Below, piece by piece: positions 3,810 through 19,680 of a stretch of DNA of 64,000 nt; positions within the stretch are counted from its first letter, which is position 1, and each line of letters begins with the position of its first letter. Origin of the DNA: an uncultured Gammaproteobacteria bacterium (lineage in GTDB: Bacteria; Patescibacteriota; Patescibacteriia; Buchananbacterales; UBA6539); contig CAZINP010000002.1 of NCBI GenBank assembly GCA_964540635.1, positions 20,963 to 84,962 on the forward strand. Direction: 5' to 3'. The notes below the pieces were generated by a model, which saw only the letters and a program-made list of their open reading frames with translations, was not told where the DNA came from and searched no databases. Both the position numbers and the translations under genes were made by a program.

Positions 3810-3842
3810 TTAAATTTTAATTAATCAACATAGCGCCATTTA

Positions 3843-4469
3843 TTGGCGCTTTTGTTGTATAAATTATTATTGTATATTATGTCTTTTAATTCAATAAAAA
3901 ATCAGCGTCGTTCAATTCGTTTGCCATATTTTGATTATTCCCAGGACGGTCAATATTTTATTACCATTTGTTCATTTGAAAAGAAAGATATTTTTTCACG
4001 GGTTGAAAATAATATATCAATTTTGAATAATTTTGGAAAGATTGTGGAGGAGGAGTTGTTAAATACCCAAAAAATTCGTAAAAACGTCATGATTGGTAAA
4101 TATGTTATCATGCCAAATCATATTCACGTAATTATCACAATTACCCGTGGTAGGGGCGCATTGCAATACGATTTTGCAACAAAAAATGGAAATCGTGGTA
4201 GGGGCGTATTGCAATACGCCCCTACGTTTGATTTTAATTACAAAAAAATATTTAAATCACCGTCGCAATCAATCGGTTCAATCGTGCGTGGTTTCAAATC
4301 AATTACCACCAAACGTATCAATATTATACGTCAAACCCCGGGCGTGCCGGTTTGGCAACGCAATTTTTACGAACACATTATTCGCGATGAAAATGATTAT
4401 CATCGTATTGTTGATTATATAAAATTAAACCCGGAAAAATGGCAATTTGACCGTAATTTCCGGAAATAA
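3843..4469 (+). CDS. REP-associated tyrosine transposase (RAYT, IS200/IS605 TnpA-like HuH)
   Basis: HuH motif 'MPNHIHVII' and C-terminal 'VWQRNFYEHIIRDENDYHRIVDYIKLNP' match the RAYT/IS200 family. Palindromic REPs lie inside and downstream of the ORF. The true start may be M13 (nt 3879). Confidence 0.75.
   Translation: MALLLYKLLLYIMSFNSIKNQRRSIRLPYFDYSQDGQYFITICSFEKKDIFSRVENNISILNNFGKIVEEELLNTQKIRKNVMIGKYVIMPNHIHVIITITRGRGALQYDFATKNGNRGRGVLQYAPTFDFNYKKIFKSPSQSIGSIVRGFKSITTKRINIIRQTPGVPVWQRNFYEHIIRDENDYHRIVDYIKLNPEKWQFDRNFRK
4146..4226. repeat. two tandem REP-like palindromic units inside the RAYT ORF (second is a perfect 28-bp palindrome GTAGGGGCGTATTGCAATACGCCCCTAC at 4198-4225)
   Basis: Direct reading: a self-complementary 28-mer beginning with GTAG; the first copy is degenerate on its right arm. 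Both are in-frame, encoding 'RGRGALQYDFATKNGNRGRGVLQYAPTF'. Confidence 0.8.
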
Positions 4470-10696: not shown

Positions 10697-10786
10697 TTTT
10701 TAACTTGACAATGAATTTTAAAGAGTTATAATGTATTTAGATGTAAATATAATTTTAACAACATAGCGCCTCGGGCGTTTTTATTT

Positions 10787-11363
10787 ATGAAAAAATATCT
10801 ATATTATTGCAATTTTATTATTTTTATTAACTGGCTGTAGTGATGGCAGTAGCTATATTCCTGAAAAACAGGAAGTGAAAGTAAACTTAGTATCCGATTC
10901 CGACGGTTGGAAAACATATACCAATAGGGAATGGGGTATTAAATTTAGGTTTGAGGATAAAGAAAATCAATATAAAGCCTATTCAGAAGACTCTTTTATT
11001 GATGTGCTTTATTTAAATGGATTAAGTGGGCCGCTTTATTTGCACAGAGGCAGCTTGAGTGATTTTTCTCCTGTGGCAATTGATCTTGAGGAGTATATAA
11101 CAAAGTATGCTTGGCGAGAAATTGAAAATGCAATTAAGCTTGAAGAATATAAGAAATTTGAAATAAATAAAAATATTAATGCTTATGAATTAGATATTTT
11201 ATCTAGGGGCGTACAACATCCAATTAATGTTCCCGATACATATTCAATTTTTACAATTTATTATTTGGAATATACAAAATTTAATACATTTGATTATATA
11301 AGTATTTTTGGTGAAACGGAACTGGTTGATCGGGTGTTAAAAAGTTTTGAATATATAGACTGA
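10787..11363 (+). pseudogene. frameshifted paralogue of the lipoprotein at 11404 (signal peptide/lipobox in +1 frame relative to the ATG)
   Basis: The ATG at 10787 gives 'MKKYLYYCNFIIFINWL*'. The next frame reads '...IYIIAILLFLLTGCSDGSSYIPEKQEVKVNLVSDSDGW...', which continues into ORF 10875..11363 (GTG start). The paralogue at 11404 has the same 'MKKYL' start, a lipobox, and a 'W.TY.N.E(Y/W)G..F' motif. Confidence 0.55.
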
Positions 11364-11403
11364 ATTATTATAAAAACTATCAACATAGCGCTTGATACAC
11401 TTT

Positions 11404-11985
11404 ATGAAAAAATATCTATTTATAACGATTTTATCGCTGATTTTAAGCGGTTGCCAGGGCGGGCAAGTGCCGGCCGAAACTGTACCTGATCTTTCGCTGA
11501 ATACGGTAACAACAACCGAAGAAATTGATACTTCGGATTGGCTGACGTACAAAAATGAAGAATACGGATTTGAGTTTAAGTATCCAAAAGAGTGGAATAT
11601 TAATTTTGAAAATTATACTAATATAAATTCTTTATTCAATTTAAATTTAGTATATTTGGGTCCTACGCAAATTACTGATACAGAAATTTACGATGGCGCA
11701 AGGCTGACTATAAATTTGCTTAGCTTAAAAGAATATAATATTGAATTTTATATTAACAGTTTCGATGCAGGGCTGGATTTTAGAGATGAGGAATTTTACG
11801 GTCATAAATCAAGTGTTTATAGTGGAAAGTTAAAGTATGGCGACATAGTAATTGATAACAGTAAAAGAAAAATAATATACATAAGTGATGAAAAGTACAT
11901 TTATCGATTAGAGACAGTGTCTTTTGGTGATAATGGTAACCAATATGATCAAATAATTAATTATATCCTAGCAGGTATTCCTTAA
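11404..11985 (+). CDS. secreted lipoprotein (paralogue family; 'WLTYKNEEYGFEFKYPKEW' motif)
   Basis: Signal peptide 'MKKYLFITILSLILSGC' (lipobox). Start set at ATG 11404; the tracked ORF starts at 11392. Confidence 0.6.
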   Translation: MKKYLFITILSLILSGCQGGQVPAETVPDLSLNTVTTTEEIDTSDWLTYKNEEYGFEFKYPKEWNINFENYTNINSLFNLNLVYLGPTQITDTEIYDGARLTINLLSLKEYNIEFYINSFDAGLDFRDEEFYGHKSSVYSGKLKYGDIVIDNSKRKIIYISDEKYIYRLETVSFGDNGNQYDQIINYILAGIP

Positions 11986-12108
11986 TTAGACGGAAAAAAA
12001 TTCCGATTTTCTAAAAAATAATCAACATAGCGTCGTGCTTATCAGTTAAGCAAGGCGCTATTTTTTATAGAAGGTTCTTTGACAATCCAACAAACAAGGA
12101 GATGAGAC

Positions 12109-15100
12109 ATGTTTAGAATTACGTTTTGTTGCTTTTTGTTCATGTGTTCGGCTTATTCAGAAAAGCCAATGCTCAAACTCCCGTTTTCAGCTGGTCAAAT
12201 TTGGTCAATCACTGTTGGTTACGGTGGTAGCGATTATCATCAAAATGATGATTTTTATGCGCTTGATTTCAATCTTCCTGGAGATTCTGATCTGGGACAG
12301 CCAATCTTGGCAGCGGCATCGGGAGAAATTTTCTACGCTGGTTGGATGAATGGCTACGGTTGGACCGTGATCATTGATCATGGCTATGGTTACAAAACCA
12401 GATATGCGCATTTGAATTTAGCGCCTACCGTATCCGGTAGAATTTTACAGGGTCAAGAGATTGGAAAATGTGGTTCGTCGGGTGGGACAAGTACCGGTCC
12501 ACATCTTCATTTTGTGATGTATTTTAATGGTGGTCCTGAAATCCCAGAGCCAATGTCGGGTTATGCAAATTTTCAGGTTGGTGGTCGATATGTTTCTGAT
12601 AACTTTTTTTATAGTCAGGAGTTAGTTATCGGCTACCATCCAGATGGCTCTATCTCTCAGCCAATCCTTGACTACTACAGTCGTCCGGAACAAAACCTTG
12701 GTCAGCCGTTTGATAACGGCGGTGGACTTTACGTTCATGACTGGTCAAGCCAAGACGGCACGACCAAAATTACGCTTCAGGATTTTTGCTTAGGCAGTCC
12801 TGGGGTTGGCACACATTGCGCCATTGTTGAGTCCGTTGATGGAAACGCATACTCGCTGAAAGGTGCTTTTCGCTGGTACTACATGCAAAAAACCTACGAC
12901 GGCATGCCTTTTGATGCCGTTAAACTGCTTGGACCGCCAATTAACGATGGCGGAGCCACAGTTTACTATCCGATTTTGCCTGACGGAACCTTTGATTGTG
13001 TTGCCGGAAAGACCAGATGCTATGTCACCCAGAGCTTTGCCAATGGGTATGACTTTGTCTGGGACGGTAGCAAGGTTTGGTTGGTTCAAAATGTTTGCGG
13101 CCTGAATAAGGCGTTGAAATCGGTGGATTTTGACTGTAATGGTCAGCCTTACGAATTTCAGATTGCCGGCAGTTTGCCGGCAGAACCGGGATGCATTACG
13201 CTTCACGGTGCGGCCAATTGCTCTACCGGCGTTTATTTGGAGTGGTCAGATACTTTGTATCAAAGCCAGTTCTATCGTTTGTGGTCAAACGGCCAGCTGA
13301 GGGCAAATGTCGGGGCCAGGGGATACAGTGATTATCCGCTTTGGCCTTCAACAACCTATCGCTATCAGGTGGAAGCAATAACTTTTTCGGGGATGTCGCT
13401 GGGTTTCAGCAATGAAATCGTGGTGACCACACCGGAAAGTGAGCAGGAACCCGGTGGCGATTTGGGCGAGCCCTTTCCAGCGCGAATTGAGGCAACTTTG
13501 TCCGAATGCCTTTGGGTGTGGGGACAAACCTCTTCGCAAAACGGGATTTATTTGACGGCTCAAGTTTTTGACCAATACGGTCAACTGATGCCAAACGAAG
13601 AGGTGGTTTTTACCTCATCAAAGCCTTTGGTTTTTTGCGTCAATTTTGATTCCGGTTGGTGCAGTGCTGATGATGTTGGTCAAGCTGAAGTCTGGGCTCA
13701 GCACCGCGATTGGAGCGGCATTCGCTCGCAGAGAATCGCGGTCACTGTGGTCAACCAACTTCCGCCCGAGCCGATTGAACCGGATGTTTATGAATCATCA
13801 GGCTTGAAGCTTGAAAACTTCAACCTTTTGAGCCAAGGGCCGTTTGTAGAGTATTGTGGGTTGTTTTATTCGGTTCTGATTAGCAACCCGACCGATCAGC
13901 CCATTACTTTTTATGGGCCTCAGCTTTACCATTTTGACTTGAACGGCAAAACGGTTGGGGATTCGCCCTACAGCATTATTCCCACCACATTGCAGCCGGG
14001 TCAGTCGCAAGGTTTTGCTGACAGCGGCGGTCAAATTGGAGCGGCCGGAGAGTATTACTTGATGGCTATGGTCAACTTTGATGGACAATATGCTTCGCCG
14101 CGATATGTGATTGACGATTGTGCGGCTGGCATCAGCAGTAAGATTTACGTCAAATCTGTTTCTCAGGACGATTTAAAGGCAGACCTACAGGCCTTTGATC
14201 TCTACCTGGATAACTCTGCTCCATCAACCAATGATTTGATTGGCCTTAACGCTCGAGTTTTTAACTTCGGGCGAAAAAAAGTTGACGCGTCCTTTTCGGT
14301 CAGTATTGAGATTCGTGGAATCGGCAGTCAGTTCTGTGAAGTCGCCGGACTTGAGCCAAACAGCTATGAGTCCTGCAATATGTTCTTTGGCCCTTTGCCG
14401 GCAGGAGCATATACGGCCGATCTGATTGTTGATTCGCAAAACTCCATTCTGGAGGAAAACGAAGGCAATAATGTGGCACATTTGCCTTTTACGGTTTCGT
14501 CAATGAATCTGCCGCCGGTTATTATTACCGATTTGGCAGATAAAACAGTGGCGCAAGGCTCCAAGGTGATTTTTGAGGTTTTAGCCACGATTGCCGATCC
14601 GCCGAATGATCAAACTGATTTGCCAATAAGCTATCAGTGGCAGCATAACGGGCAGGAGGTGATTGCCAACAATTCTTCCCAGTTAATTCTGGAAAATGTC
14701 GGTTTTGACCAGGCAGGAAGCTATGCCTGCGTGGTTACAACCGCCAATGGTTTTGCTGCATCTAGCCGCACGGCCATTCTCACGGTTTTGCCAAAATTGA
14801 AAATCACCTCTCAGCCACAAGTTCTCACCTTGTTTCAGGGTCAAGCTCTTGAGAATTGTTTGCAGGCGGTTGGTGCTGGAACCTTGTCGTACCAGTGGTA
14901 CAAAGATGGCAAGATCATCTCCGGACAGAATCAACCTTGCTTGAAAATCGCATCGGTTCTTACTTCCGACTCCGGGTTCTATCATTGTCGGGTGACTGAT
15001 GTGGCTGCTGGTTTAACGCAGCGACTAAACACAAAAGTTGTTCAGTTGTCGGTGCGTCAAGTTGGTTCTGGTGCGCCGGCCGTTTATCTGGAGTATGTGG

Positions 15101-16302
15101 ACGGTGAGAGTGTCATCACGGGACGTCTTCAGGCAAATCAATGGGCATTGGGCGGGCTTCTTTTGAATCCCTACTCTTTGCCGGCCAAAAAGACGTATGC
15201 TGATGTCCAAAATCTGGGCTTACGATTTACGCAGAGTAAGGAGCCCAAGGTTTGTCTTGATGACGGAGAGCAAATTTTGCTTGATGAAAACGGCAATTCG
15301 CTTAAAGACAATCTTTACGACGGAATTGGTTTTGACGCCACGCGCAGTTTTGAGGTCAACCTTTTCGTTGGCAGGACATTGTACTGCAGGCTAAGGCCCT
15401 ATCTGATCATTTCCGGCAAGGTTTATTACCTTAATCTGGAGGTGGTCAAGATTTATTTGAACGGGAACGAACTTGCTGTTTCAAACGGCCAAGCCTTACT
15501 CTATTTGGCCACCGTCAACCCGCAGTTGCAGATAACACTGCAACCAATTGATCGAACCGTTAAAACTGGCGCCAATTTGTATTTCAAGGTCGCTGCCGTC
15601 GGCGATCCGGTGATTACCTACGCCTGGTTTAAGGACGGTCAGGCTGTGCCCAGCGGAAATAAGGCAATTTTGCGTCTATTGGGCGTGTGTTTGGATGCAG
15701 CAGGCGAGTACTCGTGTTTGGTCAAGACTTCGGCCGGAAAAGAAGTTTGGTCATTGCCGGCCAGGTTGACTGTTTACCAGAAGTTGCAGATCCTAAGTCA
15801 GCCCGTTTCCGTTGCGCTTAGGGAAGGTGATTCTGGCTTTTTTGAAGTTGAGGCAATTGGGCAAGGAGAGCTTTTCTATCAATGGAGAAAAGACGGGAAA
15901 AAAATTCTTGGCGCAAATCAGTCTTGTCTTGAGTTTGAGTCTGTGGCAAAATCTCAGATTGGCAGCTATACCTGTTTAGTTTCAGACAGTTGTCCAGGAA
16001 CGGCTCAGCGGTTGCTGAGTCAAGCGGCTGATTTGTCAATTTTGCCTGAAATGCAAGTTGTGGTTTGCGTCGAAAAGATTGATTCGGAGTTTATTGAGTG
16101 CCAGCCATCGGCTCGCGCCAACCCGGGTCAGACCGTTCATTTTTCTTGCCAGGTGCAAAACGGCATCGCGCCATTTTCCTATCAATGGTTTTTCAATGGC
16201 GATGTATTGCCGGGTGAGATTGGATCAACTTTGGTCAAAACCGAGGTTTCAAACGACGAAGAGGGCGCTTATAATTGCCAAGTGACTGATTCGTCTGGTT
16301 GA
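12109..16302 (+). CDS. giant secreted multidomain protein: N-terminal M23 (LytM-type) metallopeptidase, two CARDB-like domains, about five Ig-like (I-set-like) domains
   Basis: M23 motifs 'HQNDDFYALDF' (HxxxD) and 'GPHLHFV' (HxH). CARDB-like 'ENEGNNVAH'. Repeated Ig hallmarks 'YQW(Y/F/R)KDG' plus 'YxC' ('SYACVV', 'FYHCRV', 'EYSCLV', 'SYTCLV', 'AYNCQV'). Strong SD 'AAGGAG' 8 nt upstream. GC is visibly higher than in the neighbouring genes. Confidence 0.75.
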   Translation: MFRITFCCFLFMCSAYSEKPMLKLPFSAGQIWSITVGYGGSDYHQNDDFYALDFNLPGDSDLGQPILAAASGEIFYAGWMNGYGWTVIIDHGYGYKTRYAHLNLAPTVSGRILQGQEIGKCGSSGGTSTGPHLHFVMYFNGGPEIPEPMSGYANFQVGGRYVSDNFFYSQELVIGYHPDGSISQPILDYYSRPEQNLGQPFDNGGGLYVHDWSSQDGTTKITLQDFCLGSPGVGTHCAIVESVDGNAYSLKGAFRWYYMQKTYDGMPFDAVKLLGPPINDGGATVYYPILPDGTFDCVAGKTRCYVTQSFANGYDFVWDGSKVWLVQNVCGLNKALKSVDFDCNGQPYEFQIAGSLPAEPGCITLHGAANCSTGVYLEWSDTLYQSQFYRLWSNGQLRANVGARGYSDYPLWPSTTYRYQVEAITFSGMSLGFSNEIVVTTPESEQEPGGDLGEPFPARIEATLSECLWVWGQTSSQNGIYLTAQVFDQYGQLMPNEEVVFTSSKPLVFCVNFDSGWCSADDVGQAEVWAQHRDWSGIRSQRIAVTVVNQLPPEPIEPDVYESSGLKLENFNLLSQGPFVEYCGLFYSVLISNPTDQPITFYGPQLYHFDLNGKTVGDSPYSIIPTTLQPGQSQGFADSGGQIGAAGEYYLMAMVNFDGQYASPRYVIDDCAAGISSKIYVKSVSQDDLKADLQAFDLYLDNSAPSTNDLIGLNARVFNFGRKKVDASFSVSIEIRGIGSQFCEVAGLEPNSYESCNMFFGPLPAGAYTADLIVDSQNSILEENEGNNVAHLPFTVSSMNLPPVIITDLADKTVAQGSKVIFEVLATIADPPNDQTDLPISYQWQHNGQEVIANNSSQLILENVGFDQAGSYACVVTTANGFAASSRTAILTVLPKLKITSQPQVLTLFQGQALENCLQAVGAGTLSYQWYKDGKIISGQNQPCLKIASVLTSDSGFYHCRVTDVAAGLTQRLNTKVVQLSVRQVGSGAPAVYLEYVDGESVITGRLQANQWALGGLLLNPYSLPAKKTYADVQNLGLRFTQSKEPKVCLDDGEQILLDENGNSLKDNLYDGIGFDATRSFEVNLFVGRTLYCRLRPYLIISGKVYYLNLEVVKIYLNGNELAVSNGQALLYLATVNPQLQITLQPIDRTVKTGANLYFKVAAVGDPVITYAWFKDGQAVPSGNKAILRLLGVCLDAAGEYSCLVKTSAGKEVWSLPARLTVYQKLQILSQPVSVALREGDSGFFEVEAIGQGELFYQWRKDGKKILGANQSCLEFESVAKSQIGSYTCLVSDSCPGTAQRLLSQAADLSILPEMQVVVCVEKIDSEFIECQPSARANPGQTVHFSCQVQNGIAPFSYQWFFNGDVLPGEIGSTLVKTEVSNDEEGAYNCQVTDSSG

Positions 16303-16322: not shown

Positions 16323-16357
16323 CTTTTTGCGGCTGCCGCTGGTGGCCGCTTTTTTTA
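16323..16357 (+). terminator. rho-independent terminator of the giant gene
   Basis: GCGGCtgccgctggtgGCCGC followed by TTTTTTT. Confidence 0.6.
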
Positions 16358-16365
16358 TAAAAAAA

Positions 16366-16604
16366 AGACCGCCAGCGAAAACACGGTGGTCTTCTGGTTG
16401 TGGAGCGGCCTTAGAGGAAGACTACGTTATCCGGTTTAGAGCCGGCGCGTTGTCTTAATGCCGCTTGTTCAAGCGATTTCGGGTATAGGCACCCGTAAGT
16501 GAATTGAGGGATTCGCTCGCCGCTACTACCCTCGGCTTGCCACAACTTTAACTGGCGTAGTCCCGTAAGCTCATGGCTGGATAGGGACCGGATTCCAGCT
16601 CGCT
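16366..16604 (-). ncRNA. unclassified GC-rich structured small RNA candidate (~240 nt), delimited by its own promoter and terminator
   Basis: On the minus strand there is a -35 TTGACA, a 17-nt spacer and a -10 TAAGAT (plus-strand coordinates 16611-16639), and a downstream hairpin AGACCACC..GGCGGTCT plus T9 (plus 16359-16393). The interval is far more GC-rich than the flanks and has many local hairpins. It is non-coding; only a random 60-aa ORF is present. Confidence 0.45.
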
Positions 16605-16610
16605 GAGAAA

Positions 16611-16645: not shown

Positions 16646-16672
16646 AAATATCTCAAAGAGATATTCTTTTTT
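16646..16672. terminator. bidirectional intrinsic terminator at the 3' end of rnpB
   Basis: AATATCTCaaaGAGATATT with an A-run on one side and a T-run on the other. Confidence 0.55.
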
Positions 16673-17049
16673 GTCCAAGTAAACTAGTAAGCCGAATTCT
16701 GTTTTTTGGTTTGCACCAAAATGATGATCATCTATCTGGGATCAATGTTGCCATTGACCTCAAGCTGCCTACCTAATTTGGCATTGCACCTGGCAGGGGT
16801 TTACCACGCAGACCGTCACCGGTCATTCGCGCGTGAGCTCTTACCTCACGTTTTCAACCTTACCGTTCTCGCAAGCGAGACTTAGGCGGTATGTTTTCTG
16901 TTGCACTTGCCCTAAGCTTGGCAAAAATTCAGAAGTCTTAAGAACTTCTGGCTTTTTGTTACTCTCGGTTCCCGTTAGGAACTGCCTTTTTGTGGTGTTC
17001 GGACTTTCCTCTCCGACGAGTCGGAGCGATCATCTTGTTTACTTGGACA
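16671..17049 (-). ncRNA. rnpB: RNase P RNA, bacterial type A
   Basis: The reverse complement contains P4 strands 'GAGGAAAGTCCGAAC' (5') and 'ACAGAATTCGGCTTAC' (3'). It has a 'GGTAAGAGCTCAC...GTGGTAAACCCC' block (E. coli: GGTAAGAGCGCACC...GGTAAACTCC). P1 pairing is TGTCCAAGTAAAC / GTTTACTTGGACA. Length is ~379 nt. Confidence 0.85.
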
Positions 17050-17161: not shown

Positions 17162-18565
17162 ATGAAGAGATCCGAATTAGCCTTAACGGCAGTTAAGCCG
17201 CCACTTGATTATTTTAACTTGATTTTGGCGGCTATTGTTGCATATATTTTACGTTACCAGCCATTTACTCAAAAAATTAGGCCGGTGGTTTTTGATTTAC
17301 CTTTTTCGGATTACATATCAATTGCTTTGCCTATTGCCATTGGTTGGATTGTAATTTTTGTAATTTCCGGCCTTTATTCCGTTGGCGGGTTTAAGTCATT
17401 GCGTGAAGAGTTGGCCAGAGTTTTTGTTGCCTGTTCGGCCGGCTTGGCCTTAGTTTTAGCGGTAATGGTTTTTACTCGTTTTTTATTTGATTCCCGTTTT
17501 ATTATTTTAACTTCCTGGATTCTGGCTTTTATTTTTGTAAGTTTGGGGAGAATAATTCTTCAGATTATAAAAAAACAATCATATAAATTTGGTATTGGTG
17601 TTCATCGCTTGGCCTTAATTGGCGATAGTAAAATTGCTCAATTGCTAAATGACGAATTTACCAGTCGACCGACCTTGGGTTATCGAGTAGTTTATCAGGC
17701 CGAAGAGTTTAGCGATACGGTTCAAAGCGAACTTTTTGAATTGAAGAAAAATGATGGCATTGATGAGTTGATCCAAATTAGACCAAATATGTGCGGCCAG
17801 AGAACCATTGATTTAATCAATTTTGCCGAGGAAAATCACTTTGACTTTAAGTATACTGCCGATTTATTAGGTGCACATTTGATAAATCTGGAAGTTAGCA
17901 CTTATGCCGGGCTGCCAATAATAGAAGTGAAGCGCACGCCACTTGATGGCTGGGGGAGGATTCACAAAAGAATTTTTGATATTGCCGTTTCCGGTGTCTT
18001 AATTATTTTATTTTCACCAATAATGTTGATCACTGCCTTGGCGGTTAAATTAACTTCGCCCGGTCCGATACTTTTTAAATATAAGCGTATTGGTCAAAAT
18101 GGTAAGGCGTTTACTTATTTTAAATTCAGATCAATGATTGATAAAGCGCATGAGCTGCGTTTTGATGAAAAGTTTGTCAGCCAGCATGATAATTTACGAG
18201 CCGGCAGTCCGATGATGAAATTTGCCAATGATCCCAGGATTACACCAGTCGGACGATTTATCAGGCGTTTTTCGATTGACGAATTAACGGAATTATTTTT
18301 AGTTTTTGGCGGAAAGATGAGTTTGGTTGGCCCCAGGCCGCATGAGGTTGAGGAGGTAGAGAAGTACAAGCATCACCACAAAAAGGTTTTAACCATCAAA
18401 CCCGGTATGTCTGGTTTGGCGCAAATTTCCGGTCGTTCAGATCTTAATTTTGAAGATGAAGTTAAATTAGATATTTATTATATTGAAAATTGGTCGTTGG
18501 GTTTAGACTTACAGATATTATTCAAAACCCCAATGGCGGTTTTAAGAAGGAGAAATGCAGAATGA
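17162..18565 (+). CDS. undecaprenyl-phosphate sugar phosphotransferase (bacterial sugar transferase, WbaP/CpsE-like)
   Basis: N-terminal TM block; C-terminal 'KRIFDIAVSGVLIILFSPIMLITALAVKLTSPGPILFKYKRIGQNGKAFTYFKFRSM' and 'MSLVGPRP'. Confidence 0.8.
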   Translation: MKRSELALTAVKPPLDYFNLILAAIVAYILRYQPFTQKIRPVVFDLPFSDYISIALPIAIGWIVIFVISGLYSVGGFKSLREELARVFVACSAGLALVLAVMVFTRFLFDSRFIILTSWILAFIFVSLGRIILQIIKKQSYKFGIGVHRLALIGDSKIAQLLNDEFTSRPTLGYRVVYQAEEFSDTVQSELFELKKNDGIDELIQIRPNMCGQRTIDLINFAEENHFDFKYTADLLGAHLINLEVSTYAGLPIIEVKRTPLDGWGRIHKRIFDIAVSGVLIILFSPIMLITALAVKLTSPGPILFKYKRIGQNGKAFTYFKFRSMIDKAHELRFDEKFVSQHDNLRAGSPMMKFANDPRITPVGRFIRRFSIDELTELFLVFGGKMSLVGPRPHEVEEVEKYKHHHKKVLTIKPGMSGLAQISGRSDLNFEDEVKLDIYYIENWSLGLDLQILFKTPMAVLRRRNAE

Positions 18566-19680
18566 AATTAGCCTTAGTGCACGATCATTTAATTCAGGAC
18601 GGCGGCGCAGAAAGAGTTTTGGATGTTTTTGCCGGAATGTACCCCGAAGCCTCAATTTATACCTTGCTTTATGATGAAAAAAAGATGGGTCACCTTTTTT
18701 CTAAGGAGAAAGTAAAAACTTCTTTTTTGCAAAATTGGCCCGGGTCGTTAACTCATTATCAGTGGTTTTTGCCGTTCATGCCTACGGCCACAGAAAGCTA
18801 CGATTTAATGGATTATGATGTTGTTTTATCAAGCTGTTCGGCAATGGCCAAGGGTGTAATTTCCAGATCAAATACCTTGCATTTTTGTTATTGTCATACG
18901 CCAACAAGATATTTATGGTCAGATACTCACAGATACCTTGAAGAGTTAAAATATAATCGTTTGATTAAAAAATTTATACCGACGGTTTTGACAAACTTGA
19001 GAACCTGGGATCAAATCGCGGCAAATCGCGTTGATTATTTTATTGCCAATTCAAAAAATGTGGCTGATCGCATTAAAAAATATTATCGTCGAGACAGCAT
19101 TATTATTCATCCTCCAGTTGAGACGGATAAATTTTTTATTTCAGATAAAATTGGGAACTATTTTTTGACCGGCGGCAGATTGGTGGCCTATAAAAGATTT
19201 GATATCGCAATTAAAGCTTTCAATCGTCTTGGAATCCCTTTGAAAATTTTTGGCACCGGGCCGGAAGAAGAAAATTTGAAAAAAATGGCAAAAGGCAATA
19301 TCGAATTTTTAGGTAAGATTGATTTTGAGGAATTGAAACTTCAATATTCAAAGGCGATTGCTTTCGTGCATCCGCAAATTGAAGATTTTGGAATTACGGC
19401 AGTAGAATCAATGGCTTCCGGTCGGCCCACCATTGCCTTTGCAGCCGGTGGCGCGTGCGAAACCGTGGTTGAAGGAAAAACCGGAACATTTTTTGAAGAT
19501 CAAACGTGGGAATCATTGGCTGACACAGTGGCCAGATTTAAGCCGGATGAATTTAATCCTCAGCAAATCAAAGATTATGCCCAGCAGTTTGGAGTAGAGA
19601 GATTCAAGTCAGAAATTAATACCCTGATTCAAACTGAATGGGAAAAATTAAAAAATTCACAAATTAAATGCGGCTTTTAG
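18562..19680 (+). CDS. glycosyltransferase family 4
   Basis: 'VHDHLIQDGGAERV'; C-terminal 'EDFGITAVESMASGRPTIA' (GT4 E-x7-E region). Start set at ATG 18562 (ATGA overlap with the upstream stop). Confidence 0.75.
   Translation: MKLALVHDHLIQDGGAERVLDVFAGMYPEASIYTLLYDEKKMGHLFSKEKVKTSFLQNWPGSLTHYQWFLPFMPTATESYDLMDYDVVLSSCSAMAKGVISRSNTLHFCYCHTPTRYLWSDTHRYLEELKYNRLIKKFIPTVLTNLRTWDQIAANRVDYFIANSKNVADRIKKYYRRDSIIIHPPVETDKFFISDKIGNYFLTGGRLVAYKRFDIAIKAFNRLGIPLKIFGTGPEEENLKKMAKGNIEFLGKIDFEELKLQYSKAIAFVHPQIEDFGITAVESMASGRPTIAFAAGGACETVVEGKTGTFFEDQTWESLADTVARFKPDEFNPQQIKDYAQQFGVERFKSEINTLIQTEWEKLKNSQIKCGF

What the first reader, a model, noticed from the sequence alone, without database searches (positions are those of the whole stretch)
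12109..16302. GC-enriched 4.2-kb gene for a giant secreted M23-peptidase/CARDB/Ig-like protein
Seen in sequence: a 1397-aa ORF with a signal peptide, an M23 metallopeptidase module (HxxxD 'HQNDD', HxH 'HLHFV'), CARDB-like modules, and at least five C-terminal domains carrying the I-set immunoglobulin hallmarks W-(Y/F)-K-D-G ... Y-x-C ('YQWYKDG...FYHCRVTD', 'YAWFKDG...EYSCLVKT', 'YQWRKDG...SYTCLVSD', 'YQWFFNG...AYNCQVTD'). The nucleotide composition of this gene is markedly more GC-rich than every flanking gene, judged by eye. Many long antisense ORFs in the track (12790-13206, 13348-13594, 13798-14088, etc.) are a side effect of this. The gene sits directly after two paralogous lipoprotein genes carrying the shared upstream motif. 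Taken together this suggests a horizontally acquired cell-surface lytic/adhesion factor, plausibly used against or for attachment to a host cell in an episymbiotic lifestyle (inference).
Basis: partly seen in the sequence, partly recalled or inferred. Interest (0 to 1): 0.6.

Follow-up and report, generated by a model that had tools for sequence, protein, structure and literature searches.

The report
Modular secreted cell-wall hydrolase of Parcubacteria
This GC-rich 4.2-kb gene encodes a secreted cell-wall-cutting enzyme on a long stalk of adhesion-type domains, from a small family of ultrasmall (CPR) bacteria that swaps enzyme heads and always sits beside a partner lipoprotein; its odd composition marks the whole family, not a recent foreign import.

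Summary
ORF 12109-16302 (+) encodes 1397 aa with a signal peptide, an intact M23 peptidase, one Pfam-supported CARDB domain and five Ig_3/I-set domains. GC is 0.476 against about 0.36 in the flanks. GC3 is 0.484 against 0.365 expected from its amino acids (z=3.5).

The "recent horizontal acquisition" reading is not supported. The host is a Candidatus Buchananbacteria-like Parcubacterium. Relatives in at least 12 other loci, mostly labelled Patescibacteria, show the same layout: a small PsbP_2-like lipoprotein gene next to a hydrolase gene. In 12 of 13 loci the N-terminal catalytic "head" has lower GC3 than the rest of the gene.

A 44%-identical relative (P0174) is collinear from residue 175 to the last Ig domain but carries an unrelated head. 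Other members carry CHAP or C39-like heads.

Most likely function: a Sec-exported peptidoglycan endopeptidase targeted by LGFP. Whether it cuts the host's wall or its own is undecided.

The GC-rich tract beyond the stop codon comes from RNase P RNA and a candidate new RNA.

The parts
10705..10732 (+). Perfect sigma-70-like promoter (TTGACA-16-TATAAT), upstream of the lipoprotein/hydrolase cluster. Possible operon promoter (inference).
   Evidence: 12 of 12 matches
10759..10786 (+). Copy 1 of the CAACATAGCG hairpin plus T-run, in the leader of lipoprotein gene 1.
10787..11363 (+). Lipoprotein paralogue 1. The signal peptide and lipobox (LLTGC) are out of frame with the body; the ORF as called is 10875-11363. 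Probably a pseudogene or an unexported copy.
   Evidence: Identical in strain L018.
11381..11390 (+). Copy 2 of CAACATAGCG, immediately upstream of lipoprotein gene 2.
11392..11985 (+). PsbP_2-like lipoprotein (197 aa; lipobox LILSGC; motif TEEIDTSDWLTYKNEEYGFEFKYP). Conserved partner of the hydrolase family.
   Evidence: Pfam PsbP_2 1.3e-5, below cutoff, and LPAM_1; alignment A4; motif in 12+ loci
12023..12066 (+). Copy 3 of CAACATAGCG. Hairpin (AGCGTCGTGCTTA..TAAGCAAGGCGCT) plus T-run between lipoprotein 2 and the hydrolase gene. REP-like element or attenuator.
12096..12101 (+). Shine-Dalgarno AAGGAG, 7 nt before the ATG.
   Evidence: read from the sequence
12109..12159 (+). Sec signal peptide (aa 1-17; cleavage AYS|E inferred).
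   Evidence: by eye; no predictor available
12172..12603 (+). M23 metallopeptidase head (aa ~22-165). H44, D48, H101, H132 and H134 are present. GC3 is native (0.335).
12610..13098 (+). Divergent LGFP-repeat domain ('domain X', aa 168-330). Predicted cell-wall binding.
13171..13443 (+). fn3-like domain (aa ~355-445), assigned by homology to family members that carry Pfam fn3 hits.
13471..13758 (+). Big-like beta-sandwich (aa ~455-550). Only a weak Big_1 hit.
13801..14163 (+). Unassigned beta-rich module (aa ~565-685), conserved in P0002, P0171, P0174 and P0185.
14179..14478 (+). CARDB domain (aa 691-790).
14509..15063 (+). Ig_3/I-set domains 1-2 (aa 801-985).
15079..15507 (+). 143-aa insert of unknown fold between Ig2 and Ig3. 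Conserved in P0174. No Pfam hit.
15508..16302 (+). Ig_3/I-set domains 3-5 and the stop codon. The protein ends 7 residues after the F-strand Cys, with no G strand and no anchor motif. P0174 ends at the same place.
16329..16359 (+). Intrinsic terminator of the gene (9-bp GC stem plus T7).

Best explanation
The gene encodes a Sec-exported, modular peptidoglycan hydrolase. It belongs to a small family found so far almost only in Parcubacteria/Patescibacteria.

Order of modules:
- signal peptide;
- catalytically intact M23 (LytM/lysostaphin-type Zn endopeptidase) 'head';
- a divergent LGFP-repeat cell-wall-binding domain;
- an fn3-like domain, a Big-like domain, an unassigned module and a CARDB domain;
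- two Ig_3/I-set domains, a 143-aa unknown insert, then three more Ig_3/I-set domains;
- no membrane or wall anchor motif at the C-terminus.

Proposed mechanism (inferred). After export, the LGFP domain docks the adjacent M23 head onto a peptidoglycan sacculus. The head cleaves peptide cross-links. The roughly 1000-residue chain of beta-sandwich domains acts as a spacer and adhesin.

The gene works together with the PsbP_2-like lipoprotein encoded directly upstream. That lipoprotein is conserved next to family members whatever their head type. Its role (membrane tether, regulator or protective factor) is not established.

Within the family the head is exchangeable (M23, CHAP, C39-like, one unrecognised type) on a conserved scaffold. 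This modularity resembles endolysins and polymorphic effectors.

The high GC and GC3 is a property of the scaffold part of this family across genomes. It is not a footprint of a recent foreign acquisition by this genome.
For: Domains: Pfam M23, CARDB and Ig_3/I-set above curated cutoffs. M23 matches solved LytM, lysostaphin, ShyA and zoocin A and NCBIfam peptidoglycan hydrolase models. The Zn-binding and catalytic residues are invariant in alignments A1 and A3.

LGFP assignment:
- A profile of residues 168-330 finds 305 representative proteins in 1.84 billion. Of 70 scanned, 31 have M23, 13 CHAP, 2 C39_2 and 7 LGFP.
- 19 of 54 excised domain segments hit Pfam LGFP, and no other family.

Family, synteny and head swapping:
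- Family and synteny. The lipoprotein motif sits adjacent in 12+ loci.
- P0174 is 44% identical over residues 175-1395 with an unrelated head.
- L014 and P0181/P0183 carry CHAP; L010 and L008 carry C39-like heads.
- Identities are incongruent between modules.

Composition:
- GC3 excess, z=3.5.
- The head has lower GC3 than the scaffold in 12 of 13 loci (my sign test, two-sided p about 0.003).
- The scaffold is native-like in GC-richer hosts.

The gene is intact and identical in length in a second strain (99.5% aa). All 13 differences (7 nonsynonymous, 6 synonymous) lie after codon 565.

Host lineage: ClpB is 77% identical to Candidatus Buchananbacteria.
Against: - No biochemical evidence. The substrate (own wall or host wall) is unknown.
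- The window protein's own LGFP-like segment gets no direct Pfam LGFP hit. The assignment rests on transitive profile hits and on a predicted structure.
- Signal-peptide cleavage is judged by eye.
- About 300 residues (565-685 and 991-1133) have no assigned fold.
- The cause of the scaffold's GC3 excess is unexplained. Intra-lineage lateral transfer from GC-richer Buchananbacteria followed by partial amelioration would give a similar picture.
- Three related loci are labelled 'uncultured Gammaproteobacteria' by their depositors, so restriction to CPR is not proven.
- The L019 contig changes composition exactly at the head/scaffold junction. It could be a chimeric assembly.
Confidence: 0.7

Rival explanations
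1. Recent horizontal acquisition of the whole gene from a GC-richer, non-CPR donor. The gene is a foreign island next to rnpB.
For: - GC 0.476 vs 0.36. GC3 0.484 vs 0.365 expected. Largest codon-usage deviation in the window.
- Very few homologues in 5.8 billion clusters.
- The nearest non-family Ig-array matches are proteins from Verrucomicrobia- or Bacteroidota-type organisms (P0009, P0011).
- The gene lies beside a stable RNA gene.
Against: - The N-terminal 170 codons have native GC3.
- Family members at 31-48% identity occur in other Patescibacteria with the same lipoprotein neighbour and the same GC excess.
- P0174 shares the entire scaffold including the Ig array.
- Non-family Ig matches are only 25-32% identical.
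- No integrase, direct repeats or tRNA target.
- The flanks are housekeeping genes and are the same in a second strain.
Confidence: 0.08
2. Lateral exchange within the lineage. The scaffold (domain X to Ig5) was imported from a GC-richer Buchananbacteria relative and is partly ameliorated. A local AT-rich head and lipoprotein were joined to it by recombination, possibly at the REP-like hairpins.
For: - In GC-richer hosts the scaffold matches host codon usage: r 0.89 in L004, and 0.93 with the L019 downstream genes.
- The window scaffold is intermediate: r 0.77 to its own background, 0.72 to the GC-rich backgrounds.
- Identities are incongruent between modules.
- There is a sharp composition break at the head/scaffold junction.
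- Conserved hairpin repeats flank the genes in several genomes.
Against: - The closest scaffold relative is only 44% identical. That is time enough for full amelioration of synonymous sites.
- The opposite anomaly (AT-rich lipoprotein and head in GC-rich hosts) would require reciprocal transfers in every genome.
- The same polarity in 12 of 13 loci looks like an intrinsic constraint rather than history.
Confidence: 0.3
3. Housekeeping autolysin. The enzyme remodels the producer's own wall (growth, division, pilus or secretion-system insertion). LGFP anchors it to the producer's sacculus as in C. glutamicum PS1, and the Ig stalk projects outward.
For: - M23 enzymes such as ShyA, MepM and DipM are endogenous wall enzymes.
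- The LGFP domain of PS1 is proposed to anchor a protein to the producer's own envelope (PMC3314691 quoting the PS1 work; 6swz).
- The gene is chromosomal and sits among housekeeping genes.
Against: - The family is rare (305 representatives for the LGFP-like profile; only a handful with this scaffold), not universal as a division enzyme would be.
- Heads of unrelated chemistry are interchangeable, and several pairs can sit in tandem (L008 has three).
- Strain differences concentrate in the outer domains.
- A 1000-aa adhesin-like stalk is unnecessary for self-remodelling.
Confidence: 0.3
4. Non-catalytic adhesin. The M23 domain is a degenerate LytM-type regulator (like EnvC or NlpD), and the protein is simply a surface adhesin.
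For: NCBIfam and PDB searches also hit EnvC, NlpD and ActS activators.
Against: All metal-binding and catalytic residues (H44, D48, H101, H132, H134) are retained and are invariant or nearly so in the family. In paralogues the M23 domain is replaced by other hydrolase folds (CHAP, C39-like), which argues that catalysis is the selected function.
Confidence: 0.07

Closest known systems
Lysostaphin / LytM / zoocin A (M23 glycyl-glycine or D-Ala-L-Ala endopeptidases with a wall-targeting domain)
   Same: Secreted Zn endopeptidase of family M23 with HxxxD and HxH motifs, joined to a separate cell-wall-binding module.
   Different: Here the targeting module is LGFP-like rather than SH3b. The catalytic domain comes first, directly after the signal peptide. 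About 1050 residues of fn3, Big, CARDB and Ig domains follow. There is a conserved lipoprotein partner gene.
C-terminal LGFP-repeat domain of Corynebacterium glutamicum PS1 / mycoloyltransferase A (PDB 6swz, 6sx4; Pfam PF08310)
   Different: 17% identity. The window sequence itself is below Pfam detection. It lies internal to the protein (after the head) rather than at the C-terminus. It is in a CPR organism without a mycolate envelope, so the ligand is probably different.
Modular mycobacteriophage endolysins (Payne and Hatfull 2012, PMC3314691)
   Same: Combinatorial shuffling of N-terminal peptidase domains (including M23) with wall-binding motifs (including LGFP in Barnyard gp39). This parallels the M23 / CHAP / C39-like head swapping seen here.
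   Different: The proteins here are cellular and Sec-exported, 500-1450 aa long, with long beta-sandwich arrays. They lie in chromosomal housekeeping contexts, not lysis cassettes.
Giant bacterial Ig_3/I-set repeat surface proteins (Verrucomicrobia, Bacteroidota; e.g. P0009 with SprB/CHU_C domains, P0011 'lamin tail domain-containing protein')
   Same: The same Pfam Ig_3/I-set repeat type with the Y-Q-W-x-K-(D/N)-G and Y-x-C signatures. The best non-family matches of the C-terminal half.
   Different: Only 25-32% identity. Those proteins lack the hydrolase head and the LGFP domain, and often carry T9SS or other sorting signals that are absent here.
Peptidoglycan-hydrolase effector / immunity pairs of contact-dependent antagonism (own knowledge of T6SS Tae/Tse and T7SS systems; not tested here)
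   Same: Polymorphic wall-degrading domain on a conserved carrier, encoded next to a small exported or lipid-anchored protein.
   Different: The variable domain is N-terminal. No dedicated secretion system is seen. The neighbouring lipoprotein belongs to one family regardless of head type, which is not what a cognate immunity protein would predict.

Membership tests
Peptidase family M23 (LytM/lysostaphin type) | Match to PF01551 above the gathering score | tested here: met
   77.5 bits vs cutoff 28.7, residues 62-142. PDB M23 chains hit down to 1.5e-14.
Peptidase family M23 (LytM/lysostaphin type) | Zn ligands HxxxD ... HxH and the catalytic His retained | tested here: met
   H44-QND-D48, H101 and H132-L-H134 are present. 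H44, D48, H101 and H132 are invariant in A3. H134 is replaced by D only in P0039. The motif definition comes from established knowledge of LytM and lysostaphin.
Peptidase family M23 (LytM/lysostaphin type) | Cleaves peptidoglycan cross-bridges | not testable with these tools
   Needs an enzyme assay.
LGFP repeat domain (PF08310; PS1 C-terminal domain) | Direct Pfam LGFP match on the window sequence | tested here: not met
   No hit for residues 168-330 even at E<=10.
LGFP repeat domain (PF08310; PS1 C-terminal domain) | Homologues reached by profile are recognised as LGFP | tested here: met
   19 of 54 excised domain segments hit LGFP (best 1.3e-9), the only family hit. 7 of 70 full-length hits also match.
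LGFP repeat domain (PF08310; PS1 C-terminal domain) | Same fold as the solved LGFP domain | tested here: met
LGFP repeat domain (PF08310; PS1 C-terminal domain) | Binds the cell wall | not testable with these tools
   Proposed for PS1 in the literature (PMC3314691). Not tested for this protein.
Immunoglobulin I-set / Ig_3 | Match above the Pfam gathering scores, repeated | tested here: met
   Ig_3 141.3 bits (cutoff 30), 5 stretches. I-set 100.8 bits (cutoff 23.7), 5 stretches.
Immunoglobulin I-set / Ig_3 | Canonical B-strand/F-strand cysteine pair and C-strand Trp | tested here: inconclusive
   The Trp and the F-strand Y-x-C are in all five domains. The B-strand Cys is present only in Ig2 (ENCLQ) and Ig5 (FSCQV). 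Ig5 lacks a G strand.
CARDB | Match to PF07705 above the gathering score | tested here: met
   39.5 bits vs cutoff 22.7, residues 691-790; one copy only.
Horizontally acquired genomic island | Composition and codon usage deviate from the host, including synonymous sites | tested here: met
   GC3 0.484 vs 0.365 expected, z 3.5. This holds only from codon 171 on.
Horizontally acquired genomic island | Absent from relatives, with no conserved synteny in the lineage | tested here: not met
   The lipoprotein + hydrolase pair is conserved in 12+ loci. The scaffold orthologue P0174 is 44% identical.
Horizontally acquired genomic island | Mobility genes, integration-site repeats, or an identifiable donor | tested here: not met
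   The flanks are RNase H-like, HAD, rnpB and sugar-transferase genes. The only mobile-type gene is a RAYT-like ORF 8 kb upstream. The best outside matches are <=32% identical.
Polymorphic effector with adjacent immunity gene | Variable catalytic domain on a conserved carrier | tested here: met
   M23, CHAP, C39-like and an unrecognised head sit on a homologous LGFP-fn3-CARDB scaffold.
Polymorphic effector with adjacent immunity gene | The neighbouring small protein co-varies with the toxin type | tested here: inconclusive
   The same lipoprotein family (nearly invariant N-terminal motif, variable C-terminal half, 19-27% identity) sits next to all head types. Co-variation of the variable half with head type was not analysed.

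The most novel reading that the evidence does not exclude
The lipoprotein + swappable-head hydrolase pair is a CPR-specific, host-directed attachment and wall-breaching module.
- The membrane lipoprotein tethers or restrains the enzyme through its nearly invariant TEEIDTSxWKTYRNEEYGFEFKYP motif.
- The LGFP domain and the Ig stalk recognise the host wall.
- Heads are exchanged between genomes as cassettes bounded by conserved REP-like hairpins (CAACATAGCG...).
- The stable compositional split (AT-rich lipoprotein and head, GC-rich scaffold) is a by-product of this recombination, for example GC-biased gene conversion in the scaffold.
Probability: 0.2. Interest if true: 0.7.

Novelty: new variant of a known kind. 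Interest (0 to 1): 0.45.

Why it matters
How ultrasmall CPR/Patescibacteria attach to other cells and draw resources from them is largely unknown outside Saccharibacteria, where type IV pili have been implicated (PMC9894109, PMC12206443).

This locus defines a concrete, testable candidate in Parcubacteria. It is a secreted peptidoglycan hydrolase family with interchangeable catalytic heads, an LGFP-type wall-binding domain not previously recognisable by sequence in these proteins, a long Ig-rich stalk, and an obligatory lipoprotein partner.

It is also a caution for island-calling by composition. Here a strong GC3 anomaly is a family-intrinsic, part-of-gene feature that recurs across genomes of different base composition. 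That pattern is itself unexplained and worth a genome-wide look.

Tried and rejected
- The look-up of encoding contigs for the window protein itself found nothing. The listing of cluster members gave no organism names. Taxonomy was therefore inferred from ClpB hits.
- The window's genome is not among the GTDB representatives scanned.
- AlphaFold on the N-terminal 400 aa with a 6-sequence alignment failed for domain X (pLDDT 46.6). It worked with a 54-sequence alignment.
- Direct Pfam and PDB sequence searches with domain X gave nothing useful. Foldseek against PDB gave no match. The afdb50 library was unavailable.
- P0174's head has no Pfam or PDB relative. Calling it papain-like rests only on Cys/His motifs seen by eye.
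- TGA read-through or recoding was considered because the in-frame continuation (TKKLFIVFLRLPLVAAFFIKKRPPAK) looks like a membrane anchor. It was rejected for three reasons. TGA ends 9 of 53 ORFs. That stretch is the terminator hairpin. P0174 ends at the equivalent residue.
- The idea that the GC-rich DNA after the stop is a decayed continuation of the gene was rejected. No Ig-like frame is present. The region holds RNase P RNA and a separately terminated minus-strand transcript candidate.
- Rfam finds no family for that candidate RNA.
- No M23-domain phylogeny was built. The core is about 100 aa, and family and non-family hits are similarly distant (44-49%), so it would not resolve origin.

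Full report

Yes. The ORF listing gives one ORF, 12109..16302 on the plus strand, ATG start, 1397 aa.

Pfam confirms four domain types:
- Peptidase_M23, residues 62-142, 77.5 bits;
- one CARDB domain, residues 691-790;
- five stretches of Ig_3 (1.3e-41);
- five stretches of I-set (4.4e-29).

They are invariant in alignments with relatives.

The composition signal is also real. Sliding windows rise from about 0.30 just upstream to 0.42-0.51 across the gene. The gene has GC 0.476 and GC3 0.484. The other 52 ORFs of the window have GC3 between 0.23 and 0.45.

I recomputed the GC3 expected from the gene's amino-acid content under the window's own synonymous codon table. That gives 0.365, so amino-acid composition explains only a small part. 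The excess is the largest in the window (z=3.5) and consists mainly of A-ending codons replaced by G-ending ones.

Two refinements:
- The first 170 codons (signal peptide + M23) have native GC3 (0.335). The anomaly begins after the M23 domain.
- The GC-rich tract runs on to about 17045 for unrelated reasons. These are RNase P RNA at 16672-17045 on the minus strand (220 bits) and a structured, ORF-free stretch before it.

**2. Which organism, and is the gene foreign to it?**

The window carries recJ, dnaB, secD, two clpB-like genes and rnpB, so it is chromosomal. Its ClpB is 77, 72 and 71% identical to ClpB of Candidatus Buchananbacteria MAGs, followed by other Parcubacteria and Patescibacteria. 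Stop-codon usage is standard: TAA 34, TAG 10, TGA 9.

The protein has very few relatives. A search of 5.8 billion clusters found itself, two N-terminal-half homologues (P0002 31%, P0003 37%), and otherwise only M23-only or Ig-only matches. A profile of the middle region added P0037 (Candidatus Buchananbacteria), P0038 and P0039. A scan of one genome per species added loci from Patescibacteria, Buchananbacteria and Liptonbacteria. Three of those MAGs are labelled "Gammaproteobacteria" by their depositors.

In essentially all of these loci the hydrolase gene is preceded by a small gene. In L005 it is followed by two such genes instead. The small gene encodes a lipoprotein with a nearly invariant motif, (T)EEIDTSxWKTYRNEEYGFEFKYP. 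L008 has three such pairs in tandem. The two genes upstream of the window ORF belong to this family (A4). Pfam gives a sub-threshold PsbP_2 hit.

The compositional oddity travels with the family:
- In AT-rich relatives the homologue is GC-richer than its flanks: L001 0.44 against 0.28-0.35; L003 0.43-0.47 against 0.33-0.40; also L005, L007, L010.
- In GC-richer Buchananbacteria (L004, and the downstream half of L019) the scaffold fits the host. Codon-usage correlations are 0.89 and 0.93. There it is the lipoprotein and the head that are AT-rich outliers.
- The head has lower GC3 than the rest of the gene in 12 of 13 loci (my sign test, two-sided p about 0.003).

A pattern that recurs with the same polarity in genomes of different base composition is not the footprint of one recent import into this genome. 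No integrase, tRNA target or flanking direct repeat is present. A second strain (L018, 99.15% nt identity over 16 kb) has the identical arrangement.

**3. What the protein is made of**

Alignments define a common plan. A signal peptide is followed by a catalytic head, a conserved ~160-aa "domain X", fn3-like and Big-like domains, CARDB-type domains, and then a variable C-terminal array.

Domain X had no Pfam or PDB sequence match. Three results identify it.
- A profile search of 1.84 billion representatives found 305 proteins, usually with the domain starting near residue 160-250. Of 70 scanned, 31 carry M23, 13 CHAP, 2 C39_2, 12 CARDB and 7 LGFP.
- Of 54 excised domain-X segments, 19 hit Pfam LGFP and nothing else.

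Domain X is therefore a divergent LGFP-repeat domain. That module is proposed to anchor PS1 to the cell wall and occurs as a putative wall-binding motif in a mycobacteriophage endolysin (PMC3314691; repeat first defined in PMC2447325).

The five Ig domains are 29-47% identical to each other, so they are old duplications. Only Ig2 and Ig5 keep the B-strand cysteine. Ig5 stops 7 residues after the F-strand cysteine. There is no LPXTG-like or hydrophobic anchor at the C-terminus.

**4. Head swapping**

The profile search turned up P0174 (1401 aa, locus L019). It is 44% identical and collinear with the window protein from residue 175 to 1395. The shared region covers the LGFP domain, fn3, Big, CARDB, Ig1-2, the 143-aa insert and Ig3-5, and the protein ends at the same place.

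Its first ~187 residues are unrelated to M23. They have no Pfam or PDB match. They do have relatives in other domain-X proteins.

Other members carry CHAP heads (L014, P0181, P0183) or C39-like heads (L010/P0172, L008).

Identities differ between modules. The window's head is closest to P0003 and P0169 (48%). Its scaffold is closest to P0174, P0171 and P0185.

So the Ig array is not a private, recently bolted-on foreign piece. What is mobile in this family is the catalytic head.

**5. Likely mechanism**

Shown here:
- an exported protein, with the signal peptide judged by eye;
- an M23 domain that retains all catalytic residues and matches solved LytM, lysostaphin, ShyA and zoocin A structures and NCBIfam peptidoglycan-hydrolase models;
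- an adjacent LGFP-fold domain;
- a long chain of beta-sandwich domains;
- a conserved lipoprotein neighbour.

Inferred:
- LGFP docks the head on peptidoglycan and the head cuts cross-links.
- The stalk spaces or adheres.
- The lipoprotein tethers, regulates or protects.

Self or host target is undecided. Several features favour an outward, antagonistic or attachment role:
- interchangeable heads of unrelated chemistry;
- tandem pairs;
- rarity of the family;
- strain differences confined to the outer domains (13 differences, 7 nonsynonymous, all after codon 565, against 2 differences in the 7.5 kb upstream).

The M23/LGFP precedents and the chromosomal housekeeping context keep an autolysin role alive.

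**6. What remains unexplained**

The cause of the scaffold's GC3 excess and the head's deficit is unknown. Three options remain:
- lateral exchange of scaffold segments among Parcubacteria of different GC content;
- biased gene conversion in a recombining region;
- selection on the mRNA.

The window scaffold's codon usage is intermediate: r 0.77 to its own background, 0.72 to GC-rich Buchananbacteria backgrounds, and 0.85 to the L001 scaffold. L019 switches composition exactly at the head/scaffold junction and should be checked for chimerism.

**7. Comparison with the known, and novelty**

Each domain is known. M23 hydrolases with targeting domains, LGFP anchors, modular endolysins and bacterial Ig_3 giants are the closest analogues.

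My literature searches found no description of the following:
- this Parcubacteria family as a unit, with an N-terminal exchangeable head, a cryptic LGFP domain and a long array;
- its obligatory lipoprotein partner;
- its part-of-gene compositional split.

I rate it a new variant of a known kind, of moderate interest.

Noticed in passing
window 3826-3835, 10759-10768, 11381-11390, 12023-12032; also L001 4570, L005 435/2302/4979, L008 3233, L019 7257: The exact 10-mer CAACATAGCG occurs 4 times in the window (about 0.1 expected for a random 10-mer). Each copy lies 1-130 nt upstream of a gene start. It forms the 5' arm of a hairpin (AGCG..CGCT, sometimes the full CAACATAGCG..CGCTATGTTG) followed by a T-run. 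The same 10-mer sits upstream of lipoprotein and hydrolase genes in distantly related genomes. It may be a REP-like element or a shared leader/attenuator.
   Followed up: partly
window 3885-4469 (+): This ORF matches the NCBIfam REP-associated tyrosine transposase model (2.5e-20, 72.8 bits, just under the cutoff of 80) and Pfam Y1_Tnp (7.7e-5). One CAACATAGCG hairpin lies upstream of it, at 3826. This suggests a RAYT/REP system in a CPR genome.
   Followed up: partly
window 10787-10877: Lipoprotein paralogue 1 is frameshifted. ATG 10787 opens MKKYLYYCNFIIFINWL*. The signal-peptide h-region and lipobox (..ILLFLLTGC|SDG) continue in the frame of the called ORF (GTG 10875). The sequence is identical in the second strain L018, so this is probably a real pseudogene or an unexported copy.
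   Followed up: partly
window ~16360-16605 (-): Candidate ~240-nt non-coding RNA between the hydrolase gene and rnpB. It has a promoter-like site at 16639-16611, a terminator hairpin at 16393-16363 plus U7, GC of about 0.5, and a folding z-score of -2.6 (plus strand -1.6). No Rfam family matches at E<=10. It contains a hairpin, GAGGG-UAGUAGCGGCGAGCGAA-UCCCUC, whose loop resembles (from memory, not verified) a conserved 23S rRNA domain I loop.
   Followed up: partly
window 17162-19680 vs L018 12541-15059: Between two strains that are otherwise about 99.97% identical upstream, the sugar transferase gene is 5.1% diverged and the GT1 glycosyltransferase gene 3.4%. This is a recombination or diversification hot spot in surface-glycan genes, immediately downstream of the hydrolase/rnpB region.
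   Followed up: no
L019 1-20206 (ENA ERZ27247363 k141_1755920): The contig switches from AT-rich genes (GC 0.30-0.40) to GC-rich genes (0.48-0.56) exactly at the head/scaffold junction of the P0174 gene. Codon-usage r for the head is 0.88 with the upstream genes; for the scaffold it is 0.93 with the downstream genes. This is either a true recombination junction or a chimeric assembly.
   Followed up: partly
L008 144-7335 (Candidatus Buchananbacteria MHIE01000013.1): Three consecutive pairs of AT-rich motif-bearing small protein + GC-rich secreted hydrolase, with M23, C39-like and M23 heads. The module can be amplified in tandem with different heads.
   Followed up: partly
L001/L009, L011, L014 (TPA MAGs): Loci that carry the same lipoprotein + hydrolase pair are labelled 'uncultured Gammaproteobacteria' by the depositor. 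Their gene content and composition look like Patescibacteria, so the labels may be wrong.
   Followed up: no
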